From an uncultured Thermoleophilaceae bacterium (lineage in GTDB: Bacteria; Actinomycetota; Thermoleophilia; Solirubrobacterales; Thermoleophilaceae): 24,000 bases of DNA. Positions 21,274 through 23,018 of this stretch are shown one piece after another. Where the stretch lies: positions 98,253 through 122,252 of the forward strand of contig CAWEHM010000033.1 of assembly GCA_963808875.1 (NCBI GenBank), read 5' to 3'. The notes beneath the pieces were generated by a model, which did not search any database, was not told the DNA's origin, and saw only the letters and a program-made list of their open reading frames with translations. A program made the position numbers and the translations under genes. The stretch's first letter is position 1. Each line of letters starts with the position of its first letter.

Positions 21274-23018
21274 TCAGTACGGGTAGGCGGGAACGACGTC
21301 GGCCTTCTTCGCGTCGAGGCGCAGCTCGCCGGGAGCGCCTGCGGGCACGAATGGGCGGTGCGGCATGACCGGGTCGATGCGCTCGTAGCCGGAGCCCAGC
21401 GGCGGCCTGGTGTCCGCGTCGCCCTTGTTCGGCCACAGCGACATCGCGCGCTCGGCGAGGGCCGTGATCGTGAGCGACGGGTTCACTCCCGGGTTGGCCG
21501 GCATCACGCTGCCGTCCATGACGTGAAGGCCCGGCTGGCCGAACAGCCGCAGGTAGGGGTCGACGGCGCCGCTTCGCTGCTCTCGCCGATCGGGATGCCG
21601 CCGACGAAGTGGGCGGAGGCGTTGCGGTTGATGACCTCGAACGAGCAGCGCCCCCTCGCTGCCGTCCAGCTTCGTCGCCACCCGGTCGACGAAGTCCTCG
21701 ATCGACCGGGATGTGCACCGGCGGAGGCGTGCCGGACGTGCCGGCTGCGCAGCAGGCCGTCGTGCCAGTACAGCTCGATCGAGGTGTCGGTCGTCTGCAT
21801 GCAGAGCATGATCGACGGTGCGCTCGGACCAGTGGCGCGGGTCGTCGAAGCCGAGCACCTCGGCTCGGGTGTTCGAGCAGCTCCTTGAGCCAGGACGCGG
21901 TCGGGTGCTTCTGCTCGCCGTGCTGGTGGTAGGTCACCGAGGAACGCGAACACGTCGCTCCCGACTCCCCAGATAGGTCGGCTCGATGCTCGTCTCCGGG
22001 TCCGGCCAGACGCCGGAGGTGATCGCGACCGACCCGGGCGTGATGTGGATCCTCTCCGGATCGCGCTCCCAGTCCCCGTGGGTCCGCGTGATGGAGAGAA
22101 GCTGTTCGGAGTTCGTCCGCGCGCGCTGCCCGAGCTCGCTCGAGAGGCCGGTGAGGCGGCCCTTGTGCTGCATGTGATGCAGGAGCTTGGCCGAGCCGTA
22201 CGCGTGGGCGGCGACGATCACCTGCTCGGCGGTGTACGTGTGGTGCTGGAGATGCGCCGCGCGCTGCGCCCAGCCGGGATGACGCGCATGCACCTCGAAC
22301 CCGCCTCCGTCGAGCGGGACGAGGTCGTACACCTCGTGCAGCTCGTGGATCTGCGACGCCGAGCTTCTCGGCGAGGTAGAGGTAGTTCGTCGTCAGCTTG
22401 TTCTTGGCGTTGTGGCCGCAGCCGATGTTGCAGTTGCCGCACGAGATGCAGCCGGTGCGCCGCGGGCCCGACGCCGCCGAAGTACGGATCGTCGGCCTCG
22501 ACGCCCGGGCTGCCGAAGTAGACGCCGACCGGGCGCCTTGTTGAACGTCTCCCCTCGCCCCATCTCGATCGCGACCTGCTGCATGGCCCGGTCGACGTCG
22601 GTCGGCATGTACGGGTAGCGGACGACGCCGAGCATCCGGCGTCGCCTGGTCGATAGTAGCGGCGCCAGCTCGTCGGCCCAGTCGGTGATGCCGGCCCACT
22701 CCGGCGCGTCGAAGAACTGCTTCGGCGGGACGTACAACGTGTTGGCGTAGACGTGCGAGCCGCCGCCGACGCCGGCGCCGGAGAGGACGAGCACATCGTC
22801 GAGGTACTCGATCCTCTGGATCCCGTAGAGCTCCGCGGCGGGGAACCAGAGGAAGTGCGGCAGATCCCACTGGCGTCTTCGGGATGTCCTCGTCCTTCCA
22901 GCGCCGGCCGGACTCCATGCACGCCGACCCGGTAGCCCTTCTCCGCGGCGCGCAGCGCGGCGACGCTGCCGCCGAACCCCGAGCCGACGATCACCACGTC
23001 GTAGTCGAACCTCGCCAT
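21274..23018 (-). pseudogene. GMC family oxidoreductase, cholesterol-oxidase/ChoD-like, interrupted by ~13 single-base frame breaks
   Basis: Starts [33 protein letters not shown] (FAD GxGxxG) with GGGGAG SD upstream. Ends ...[41 protein letters not shown]...PAYPY* (ORF 21274..21858). The intervening conserved pieces are spread in order over all three minus frames (ORFs 22218..23018, 21017..22918, 22393..23505, 21934..22332, 21504..21953, 21274..21858). Details are in the findings. Confidence 0.85.

What the first reader, a model, noticed from the sequence alone, without database searches (positions are those of the whole stretch)
21560..22930. ChoD-like GMC oxidoreductase gene cut into 14 in-order pieces by 13 single-base frame breaks, 12 of them in the same direction
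Reading the minus strand from ATG 23018 (good SD) to TGA 21274, a full-length cholesterol-oxidase/ChoD-type GMC flavoprotein is present, but only if the frame is changed 13 times.

Pieces in order:
1. [33 protein letters not shown]
2. [15 protein letters not shown]
3. [54 protein letters not shown]...[13 protein letters not shown]
4. [23 protein letters not shown]
5. [36 protein letters not shown]
6. [21 protein letters not shown]...AITSGVWPDPETSIEPTYLG
7. [11 protein letters not shown]
8. [23 protein letters not shown]
9. [16 protein letters not shown]
10. [23 protein letters not shown]
11. [13 protein letters not shown]
12. [20 protein letters not shown]
13. [23 protein letters not shown]
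14. [51 protein letters not shown]...PAYPY*

Approximate break points: 22920, 22874, 22532, 22460, 22352, 21968, 21933, 21864, 21814, 21744, 21704, 21643, 21571.

- Direction: the first 12 breaks step the codon-start coordinate mod 3 through 2>1>0>2>1>0..., so each is explained by one extra base. Only the last needs one missing base. 1745-12+1 = 1734 nt = 578 codons.
- Density: eight breaks fall within 400 nt.
- Context: several are not in homopolymer runs (GTC-G-ATC twice, CTC-G-TTC, GTG-C-ATG).
- Conservation: inside the pieces there are no stops and third-position GC stays high. Piece order and spacing follow mycobacterial ChoD as I remember it, so this is not an old decayed pseudogene.
- Neighbours: the flanking LuxR gene (863 nt in window) and the membrane gene (1053 nt) have no breaks.

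Possible explanations, most to least likely:
- Insertion-biased consensus error confined to this gene, from low coverage or from polishing with reads of a paralogous GMC gene.
- A very recent insertion-biased mutational burst.
- Recoding.
Basis: partly seen in the sequence, partly recalled or inferred. Interest (0 to 1): 0.8.

Follow-up and report, generated by a model that had tools for sequence, protein, structure and literature searches.

The report
Broken oxidase gene is assembly artefact
The cholesterol-oxidase-like gene looks shattered by about 16 one-base errors, but these are almost certainly mistakes made when reads from two slightly different strains or gene copies were merged into one consensus, so the gene is probably intact in nature.

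Summary
On the minus strand, ATG 23018 to TGA 21274 encodes a full-length GMC/cholesterol-oxidase-like flavoprotein that can only be read with 13 lasting frame changes. Alignment to 68 distinct intact homologue genes shows 16 events: 15 one-base insertions and 1 deletion. Removing all 16 gives 1731 nt, or 576 aa, the homologue length.

This is a consensus artefact, not biology.
- All 14 clearly placed insertions sit next to a site that varies among homologues, and the window carries both common alleles side by side (GT[G/C]ATG becomes GTGCATG). Chance gives 0.31 per site; P about 1e-7.
- A fifteenth insertion is one base of a codon present in 62% of homologues.
- The deletion removes a variable third codon position.
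- Two Nanopore-only soil genomes assembled from metagenomes carry the same kind of insertion in this gene, two at identical sites.
- The repaired gene has no stop codons and differs from homologues mostly by synonymous changes.

The errors are not confined to this gene. The adjacent Rieske gene has one, and six homopolymer-length frameshifts hit four other genes. Interest is low, except as a quality-control signature.

The parts
21274..23018 (-). GMC / cholesterol-oxidase-like (ChoD-type) flavoprotein gene. It is 1745 nt as recorded and 1731 nt (576 aa plus stop) once 15 extra bases are removed and 1 missing base is restored.
   Evidence: Three-frame reading. 91% identity to intact 576-aa homologues. 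Profile alignment. The repaired protein hits Pfam GMC_oxred_N and GMC_oxred_C. The nearest solved structures are cholesterol oxidases 1COY and 1B4V.
22919..22920 (-). Extra base. GT[G|C]ATG is written GTGCATG, so both third-position alleles of a Val codon are present.
   Evidence: Homologue column: C 0.62, G 0.29.
22873..22874 (-). Extra base. AC[G|C]CAG is written ACGCCAG. The identical insertion is present in L006.
   Evidence: Column: C 0.60, G 0.22.
22655..22659 (-). Two extra bases (22659 and 22656) in a variable stretch.
   Evidence: Columns: C 0.16 / T 0.84 and C 0.46 / T 0.54.
22639..22640 (-). Extra base, the third of the frame-neutral trio. AC[G|C]CGG is written ACGCCGG.
   Evidence: Column: C 0.47, G 0.40.
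22533..22534 (-). Extra base. GC[G|C]CCG is written GCGCCCG.
   Evidence: Column: C 0.53, G 0.16.
22466..22467 (-). Extra base. GG[G|C]CCG is written GGGCCCG.
   Evidence: Column: G 0.40, C 0.09.
22353..22354 (-). Extra base. [G|C]AG (Glu/Gln) is written GCAG.
   Evidence: Column: G 0.75, C 0.21.
21973..21975 (-). Extra base. ACC[ATC|TAC]TGG is written ACCTATCTGG.
   Evidence: Columns: A 0.69 / T 0.28 and C 0.72 / T 0.26.
21938..21939 (-). Extra base. CT[C|G]G.. is written CTCGG.
   Evidence: Column: C 0.47, G 0.41.
21864..21865 (-). Extra base in the variable stretch CCG-AGC-(C/G)AG.
   Evidence: Columns: A 0.69 / G 0.30 and C 0.40 / G 0.24.
21812..21814 (-). Extra base. GT[C|G]ATC is written GTCGATC.
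   Evidence: Column: C 0.75, G 0.18.
21737..21737 (-). A lone G. It is one base of a codon (GGC) that 62% of homologues have and 38% lack.
21702..21704 (-). Extra base. GT[C|G]ATC is written GTCGATC. The identical insertion is present in L005.
   Evidence: Column: C 0.68, G 0.22.
21642..21643 (-). Extra base. CT[C|G]TTC is written CTCGTTC.
   Evidence: Column: G 0.47, C 0.32.
21573..21574 (-). One missing base. The third position of a GAR codon has been lost (GA-AGC).
   Evidence: Column: A 0.50, G 0.34, C 0.15.
20928..21261 (-). Rieske [2Fe-2S] gene directly downstream. It carries one extra base at about 21095. As recorded, this fuses its N-terminus in frame to the next gene, giving a false 460-aa ORF (19879-21261).
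   Evidence: The repaired protein hits Pfam Rieske. The 460-aa fusion is on record in the public protein collection.
21094..21096 (-). Extra base in the Rieske gene (GACG[A]AGCC). It lies in a variable stretch but is not clearly a both-alleles case.

Best explanation
The gene is not broken in any real organism. The record comes from a long-read, metagenome-style assembly. Across roughly 21095-22920, the consensus was computed from reads of two or more slightly different versions of the oxidase-Rieske segment. These could be co-occurring strains collapsed into one path, a second near-identical copy, or reads of close relatives mapped there during polishing.

Where the versions differ by a single base, aligners and consensus callers can represent the mismatch as an insertion plus a deletion. 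If the insertion is accepted and the deletion is not, both alleles end up written next to each other, which adds one base. The opposite outcome loses the base, and that happened once. A three-base codon difference between the versions left one stray base.

What is shown:
- the positions and directions of the events;
- their coincidence with natural polymorphisms;
- recurrence of the pattern in other Nanopore genomes assembled from metagenomes (MAGs);
- ordinary homopolymer errors elsewhere in the same record.

What is inferred:
- that reads of two haplotypes were present;
- which software step produced the calls;
- why this 1.8-kb stretch was affected.
For: 1. All 14 cleanly placed insertions have an inserted base that differs from its neighbour, and both bases are common alleles (at least 5%) at the adjoining column of a 68-gene codon profile. 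The chance expectation is 0.31 per insertion, giving binomial P = 9e-8. At a 15% allele threshold it is 13 of 14, P = 1e-10.
2. Either allele gives a sense codon. Nine of the 14 pairs are synonymous, and the rest are conservative: H/Y, E/Q, Y/F, T/A, V/I.
3. The fifteenth insertion is one base of a codon that is present in 62% and absent in 38% of homologues. The single deletion removes a variable third position.
4. Only 2 of 14 insertions could be homopolymer extensions. This is not the usual random long-read error.
5. The same type of insertion occurs in the same gene in two independent MAGs. L006 has 6 internal insertions, all of the both-alleles type, and one is identical to the window's at 22874. 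L005 shares the window's at 21703. Those MAGs carry MFD sample names. That project used Nanopore-only metaFlye assemblies with one round of Medaka, from soils with high microdiversity (PMC12313526).
6. All 73 homologue genes I extracted whole from the retrieved metagenome contigs (L001-L003 and L007-L086) are uninterrupted.
7. The repaired gene has no stop codons and differs from its nearest homologues mostly at synonymous sites, for example 114 synonymous against 42 nonsynonymous codons for L002.
8. The same record has six homopolymer-length frameshifts in four other genes. Repairing them restores full Pfam domain coverage, so the record is demonstrably error-prone.
9. There is precedent. In a collapsed diploid assembly, nearby allelic variants caused wrong read alignments and INDEL errors that truncated ORFs (PMC8445201). 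ONT soil assemblies also show more frameshift errors (PMC13087279).
Against: - No reads are available, so the presence of two haplotypes is inferred and not seen.
- The source record could not be retrieved, so its sequencing platform and pipeline are not known directly. I know only that it is an NCBI/ENA contig of 161,682 bp.
- Sorting the two alleles at each site did not recover a homologue that carries all the 'first' or all the 'second' alleles. The best were 10 of 14 and 9 of 14, so the second haplotype is not identified.
- Why the problem is limited to this 1.8-kb stretch is unexplained.
- The Rieske insertion at 21095 does not clearly fit the both-alleles pattern.
Confidence: 0.87

Rival explanations
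1. Generic random consensus error from locally low long-read coverage or failed polishing, with no second haplotype involved.
For: The record has other long-read-type errors: six homopolymer-length frameshifts. The Rieske insertion at 21095 looks like an A-run extension.
Against: Random errors would fall next to a suitable two-allele site only about 31% of the time, but 14 of 14 do. Only 2 of 14 are homopolymer-compatible, whereas all six errors elsewhere are homopolymer changes. Identical insertions recur in L005 and L006.
Confidence: 0.07
2. A real, very recent pseudogene: a burst of one-base insertions in the living organism.
For: The frameshifts are present in a deposited public record. 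The 460-aa Rieske fusion product is on record. L004, a MAG with a different naming scheme (GB_EKS) whose platform I did not establish, also has a broken copy, with -4, -1 and +5 nt changes.
Against: A ratio of 16 insertions to 1 deletion runs against the deletion bias usual in bacterial gene decay (my own knowledge). The repaired frame has no stop codons and no excess of nonsynonymous change. No mutational process is known that inserts the population's alternative allele next to the resident one. Two insertions are shared with genomes that are only about 89% identical, while the rest are not shared, which does not fit descent.
Confidence: 0.03
3. Base-calling errors triggered by DNA methylation motifs such as GATC.
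For: Two sites read GTCGATC (21813, 21703), and one allele at each creates or adjoins GATC. Recurrence at the same site in other Nanopore MAGs would suit a motif effect.
Against: Only 2 of the 15 insertion sites involve GATC, and the other contexts share no motif. Methylation errors in Nanopore data are mainly substitutions (my own knowledge). A motif effect would not be confined to 1.8 kb.
Confidence: 0.02
4. Recoding: the gene is expressed through many programmed +1 frameshifts.
For: The pieces are in order, free of stop codons, and together make a full-length protein.
Against: All 73 orthologue genes extracted whole are uninterrupted. The shift sites share no slippery or stimulatory sequence. 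Sixteen shifts in one bacterial mRNA has no precedent (my own knowledge). Three of the insertions cancel within 20 nt, which serves no decoding purpose.
Confidence: 0.01

Closest known systems
Indel and frameshift artefacts in consensus sequences built from collapsed haplotypes (for example the collapsed Trypanosoma brucei Lister 427 assembly, PMC8445201)
   Same: Apparent frameshifts sit at or near allelic variants, ORFs are truncated, and separating the haplotypes removes them. The cause described there is wrong read alignment around nearby variants followed by INDEL errors in the collapsed consensus.
   Different: Here the mixed versions would be strains, copies or relatives in a soil metagenome, not the two chromosomes of a diploid. 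The error is nearly always 'both alleles kept', and it is concentrated in one 1.8-kb stretch. Reads were not available to show the haplotypes.
Homopolymer-length errors in Nanopore-only assemblies
   Same: These occur in the same window: six frameshifts in the DAO-type, HD-domain, E1 and CydA genes, all changes in the length of G or C runs.
   Different: The oxidase-gene insertions are mostly not in homopolymers (12 of 14) and are tied to polymorphic sites. They are a different error class.
Intact ChoD-type GMC oxidoreductases of Solirubrobacterales and related soil Actinomycetota (P0001, P0004; loci L001-L003, L007-L086)
   Same: The window's gene is 90-91% identical in protein and about 88-90% in DNA. 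The repaired length is the same (576 aa). A roughly 111-aa Rieske gene follows directly downstream in 66 of 73 loci.
   Different: Those genes are uninterrupted. Gene order around the pair also differs: the ABC-2 membrane gene is upstream there and downstream here.
Genuine frameshifted pseudogenes in decaying bacterial genomes
   Same: Multiple frameshifts in a recognisable gene.
   Different: There are no stop codons in the ancestral frame, differences are mostly synonymous, the bias is towards insertion, and the inserted bases equal alternative alleles. None of this is expected from decay.

Membership tests
GMC oxidoreductase, cholesterol-oxidase-like (ChoD type) | N-terminal FAD-binding Rossmann motif GxGxxG | tested here: met
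   The sequence reads [18 protein letters not shown]_binding_2 and NAD_binding_8 hits cover residues 6-42.
GMC oxidoreductase, cholesterol-oxidase-like (ChoD type) | GMC_oxred_N and GMC_oxred_C domains above Pfam's curated cut-offs | tested here: met
   On the repaired protein, GMC_oxred_C scores 59.8 bits (cut-off 24.6) and GMC_oxred_N scores 27.9 bits (cut-off 23).
GMC oxidoreductase, cholesterol-oxidase-like (ChoD type) | Full-length colinearity with intact family members | tested here: met
   91% identity over 100% of the query to 576-aa proteins. The profile alignment is end to end.
GMC oxidoreductase, cholesterol-oxidase-like (ChoD type) | Oxidation of cholesterol or another 3-beta-hydroxysteroid | not testable with these tools
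   The only evidence is distant sequence similarity to solved cholesterol oxidases (1COY at E = 2e-23; the best-scoring stretch is C-terminal, residues 471-522). The substrate is unknown.
Mixed-haplotype consensus artefact | Indels coincide with sites that vary between haplotypes, and the consensus holds both alleles | tested here: met
   14 of 14 insertions, P = 9e-8. The partial codon at 21737 and the deletion at a variable third position fit too.
Mixed-haplotype consensus artefact | The same kind of error recurs in independent assemblies made from similar data | tested here: met
   L006 has 6 insertions of this type, and L005 has 1. Two are at sites identical to the window's. MFD MAGs are Nanopore plus metaFlye plus Medaka.
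Mixed-haplotype consensus artefact | Reads fall into two or more groups, each with an intact frame | not testable with these tools
   No reads are available, and the source record was not retrievable.
Genuine frameshift pseudogene | Signs of relaxed selection: stop codons in the ancestral frame and excess nonsynonymous change | tested here: not met
   Zero stop codons. 93-114 synonymous against 42-61 nonsynonymous codon differences to the four nearest homologues.
Genuine frameshift pseudogene | The lesions are present in the organism's DNA | not testable with these tools
   This needs reads or PCR.
Programmed ribosomal frameshifting / recoding | Shift sites conserved in orthologues, with a shared shift-prone sequence | tested here: not met
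   All 73 orthologue genes extracted whole are uninterrupted. The contexts of the 15 sites share no motif.

The most novel reading that the evidence does not exclude
The extra bases are real and arise in the cell. For example, recombination between diverged copies of the oxidase-Rieske segment could form heteroduplex DNA whose mismatches are resolved so that both strands' bases are kept. That would be a previously undescribed insertion-generating repair outcome, and it would inactivate the gene in a burst. The both-alleles pattern alone does not formally exclude this. Only reads can.
Probability: 0.02. Interest if true: 0.8.

Novelty: not a real feature. Interest (0 to 1): 0.1.

Why it matters
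This has no biological significance. The gene should be treated as an intact ChoD-type oxidase with a Rieske partner.

There is practical value.
- The 'both alleles written side by side at a naturally variable site' signature can be detected from sequence alone, given a set of homologues.
- It separates mixed-strain consensus errors from homopolymer errors and from true pseudogenes.
- It recurs in other public Nanopore MAGs.
- Such errors spread into protein databases. The false 460-aa Rieske::membrane fusion from this record is already on record. They can also inflate pseudogene counts or invite false claims of recoding.

Tried and rejected
- **Retrieving the source contig.** Three look-ups with proteins of the window found nothing, although the exact proteins are listed under NCBI/ENA on a 161,682-bp contig. 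The genome scan found only relatives, not the source.
- **Looking up the broken ORFs as public proteins.** The 194-, 266- and 633-aa ORFs are not on record. This is uninformative, because gene callers may choose other starts or mark a pseudogene.
- **Phasing the two alleles against homologues.** No reference carries all 'first' or all 'second' alleles; the best were 10 of 14 and 9 of 14. This is not decisive either way.
- **A conserved island that recruits reads of relatives.** The oxidase-Rieske pair is 87-89% identical in DNA to the relatives, against 72-80% for flanking genes in those loci. But those loci were selected through the oxidase gene, and other window genes also have relatives at 90% protein identity or more. 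I keep this only as one possible reason for the localisation.
- **GATC methylation as the cause.** It fits only 2 of the 15 insertion sites.
- **Overlapping ORF pairs as further frameshifts.** Several pairs elsewhere proved to be separate intact genes: 12071-13677, 14723-16440 and 16233-17362.

Full report
**What is in the sequence.** The window is 70% G+C. On the minus strand, a gene with a good ribosome-binding site starts at ATG 23018 and ends at TGA 21274. A protein stitched together from them matches thousands of GMC-family proteins. The best matches are intact 576-aa proteins labelled 'cholesterol oxidase' or 'GMC family oxidoreductase'. They are 91% identical over the full length, and several are named as Solirubrobacterales or Solirubrobacteraceae. 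The repaired protein passes Pfam's cut-offs for GMC_oxred_N and GMC_oxred_C and has the N-terminal GxGxxG motif. Its nearest solved relatives are the cholesterol oxidases 1COY and 1B4V.

**Placing the breaks.**
- I fetched contigs that encode intact close homologues (L001-L003) and 80 more loci from soil metagenomes (L007-L086).
- I extracted 73 uninterrupted genes, 68 of them distinct, and built a 1731-column codon profile.
- I aligned the window's gene to that profile and checked the result against direct DNA alignments.
- The window has one-base insertions at about 22920, 22874, 22659, 22656, 22640, 22534, 22466, 22353, 21973, 21938, 21864, 21813, 21737, 21703 and 21643. One base is missing between 21574 and 21573.
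- The repaired length is 1745 - 15 + 1 = 1731 nt, or 576 aa plus stop, the same as the homologues. It is not 578 codons.

**Not confined to this gene.** Homologous loci have a roughly 111-aa Rieske gene directly after the oxidase gene. I found it in 66 of 73 loci. The window has it too (21261-20928), but with one extra base near 21095. As recorded, this reads through into the next gene and produces a false 460-aa ORF (19879-21261). That product is listed in the public protein collection under NCBI/ENA, on a 161,682-bp contig. A G+C-by-codon-position scan, Pfam coverage, a comparison with E. coli pyruvate dehydrogenase E1 and three-frame reading revealed six more frameshifts:

| Gene | Position | Change in the record |
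|---|---|---|
| DAO-type oxidoreductase | ~5140 | G run one short |
| HD-domain gene | ~8412 | C run one short |
| E1 / transketolase-like gene | ~9014-9019 | one extra base in GGGCC |
| CydA | ~19065 | G run one long |
| CydA | ~18945 | C run one short |
| CydA | ~18650 | G run one long |

Repairing them restores full domain coverage:
- CydA rises from 355 to 421 bits, covering profile positions 2-416 of 418.
- DAO rises from 97 to 152 bits, covering 2-352 of 353.
- The transketolase C-terminal domain goes from 1-54 to 1-113 of 113.
- The HD domain is covered across 2-115 of 116.

The record is therefore generally error-prone. The oxidase-Rieske stretch is still an extreme hotspot, with 17 events in 1826 nt against 6 in the remaining 22.2 kb (P = 6e-15).

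**The decisive pattern.** In the alignments, the extra base is almost always the alternative allele of a naturally variable site, written next to the resident allele.
- Homologues have GTG-ATG or GTC-ATG, and the window has GTGCATG.
- Homologues have ACC-CAG or ACG-CAG, and the window has ACGCCAG.
- Homologues have GTC-ATC or GTG-ATC, and the window has GTCGATC, at two sites.
- Homologues have CTC-TTC or CTG-TTC, and the window has CTCGTTC.
- Homologues have ACC-ATC or ACC-TAC, and the window has ACCTATC.

I tested this formally. For each insertion I asked two things: whether the inserted base differs from a neighbour, and whether both bases are common alleles at that neighbour's column in the 68-gene profile.
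- All 14 cleanly placed insertions pass at a 5% allele threshold. Random insertions into the repaired gene pass 31% of the time (P = 9e-8).
- At a 15% threshold, 13 of 14 pass against a chance rate of 14% (P = 1e-10).
- Only 2 of 14 could be homopolymer extensions.
- Either allele gives a sense codon. Nine pairs are synonymous and the rest are conservative.
- The fifteenth insertion, the lone G at 21737, is one base of a GGC codon that 62% of homologues have and 38% lack.
- The one deletion removes a variable third codon position.

So all 16 events in the oxidase gene sit on natural polymorphisms.

**Recurrence in other assemblies.** A genome-collection scan with a conserved 44-mer found three relatives. 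In all three, the retrieved part of the oxidase gene carries frame-disrupting indels; L005 holds only the 3' part.
- L006 (MFD00008.bin.1.121) has six internal one-base insertions. All are of the both-alleles type, and one is identical to the window's at 22874.
- L005 (MFD00822.bin.2.11) shares the window's insertion at 21703.
- These genomes are only about 89% identical to the window in this gene and do not share the other events. Inheritance is therefore implausible, and a recurrent artefact at high-frequency G/C sites is the simpler reading.
- MFD MAGs come from Nanopore-only metaFlye assemblies polished with one round of Medaka. The authors report high microdiversity in soils (PMC12313526).
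- L004, which has a different naming scheme (GB_EKS), is broken differently (-4, -1, +5 nt).

**Why it is not biology.**
- The repaired gene has no stop codons, and its differences from the nearest homologues are mostly synonymous (114 against 42 codons for L002). It has been under selection up to the present.
- A ratio of 16 insertions to 1 deletion is the opposite of the deletion bias of bacterial gene decay (my own knowledge).
- No known mutational process inserts the population's other allele beside the resident one.
- Recoding is excluded in practice. All 73 orthologue genes extracted whole are uninterrupted, the sites share no shift-prone motif, and three insertions cancel each other pointlessly.
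- Methylation-linked miscalling could touch the two GTCGATC sites but not the rest.

**Most likely mechanism.** The consensus over about 21095-22920 was computed from a mix of two or more versions of the segment. Single-base differences were rendered as insertion plus deletion, and usually only the insertion survived. This kind of error is described for collapsed diploid assemblies, where nearby allelic variants cause wrong alignments and INDEL errors that truncate ORFs (PMC8445201). ONT soil assemblies are also reported to have more frameshift errors (PMC13087279).

Still inferred, not shown:
- that two read populations exist;
- which program made the calls;
- why only this stretch is affected. 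A collapsed strain bubble, a second copy and cross-mapped reads of relatives are all possible.

I could not retrieve the source record, and the allele phasing against homologues was inconclusive.

**Verdict.** The feature is an artefact. Interest is low, apart from a usable quality-control signature and a warning that products of such errors are already in public protein collections.

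Noticed in passing
window ~5140 (+), ~8412 (+), ~9014-9019 (-), ~19065, ~18945, ~18650 (-): Six further frameshifts in four genes: a DAO-type FAD oxidoreductase, an HD-domain protein, a PDH-E1/transketolase-like protein, and three in cytochrome bd subunit I. All are changes in the length of G or C runs. Repairing them restores full Pfam coverage.
   Followed up: yes
window 19879-21261 (-): A false 460-aa ORF fuses the Rieske N-terminus to the ABC-2-type membrane protein. The true start of the membrane gene is the ATG at 20931, which overlaps the Rieske stop codon. The fusion is recorded as a protein in the public collection (NCBI/ENA), while its 90%-identity cluster mates are about 354 aa.
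   Followed up: partly
L006 ~940-3040 (-), L005 7100-8000 (-), L004 2035-3770 (+): The same oxidase gene is also frameshifted in three species-representative MAGs. The two MFD Nanopore MAGs show the same both-alleles insertions. L004 ('Acidobacteriota' GB_EKS MAG) has -4, -1 and +5 nt changes of unknown origin.
   Followed up: partly
L001-L003, L007-L086 and window 20928-23018: The ChoD-type oxidase gene is followed directly by a roughly 111-aa Rieske [2Fe-2S] gene in 66 of 73 loci. This suggests a conserved two-gene unit, possibly with the Rieske protein as the redox partner of the flavoprotein. Its function has not been examined.
   Followed up: no
window 11383-11650 (-) and 13591-13662 (+): A bacterial large SRP RNA (Rfam RF01854, 172.7 bits, full length) and a tRNA-Val (CAC). 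The tRNA lies inside the upstream end of the mechanical ORF 12916-13677, so the real start of that DUF308 gene must be further in.
   Followed up: no
window 4277-8309 (-): The housekeeping cluster dnaX - ybaB/ebfC - recR appears intact. The mechanical ORFs for dnaX and recR extend well upstream of where their domains begin.
   Followed up: no
window 17223-17549 (-): The cytochrome bd subunit II ORF continues about 108 codons past the end of the Pfam domain, in the same frame and with coding-like G+C at third positions. This may be a C-terminal membrane extension. I did not check it against homologues.
   Followed up: no
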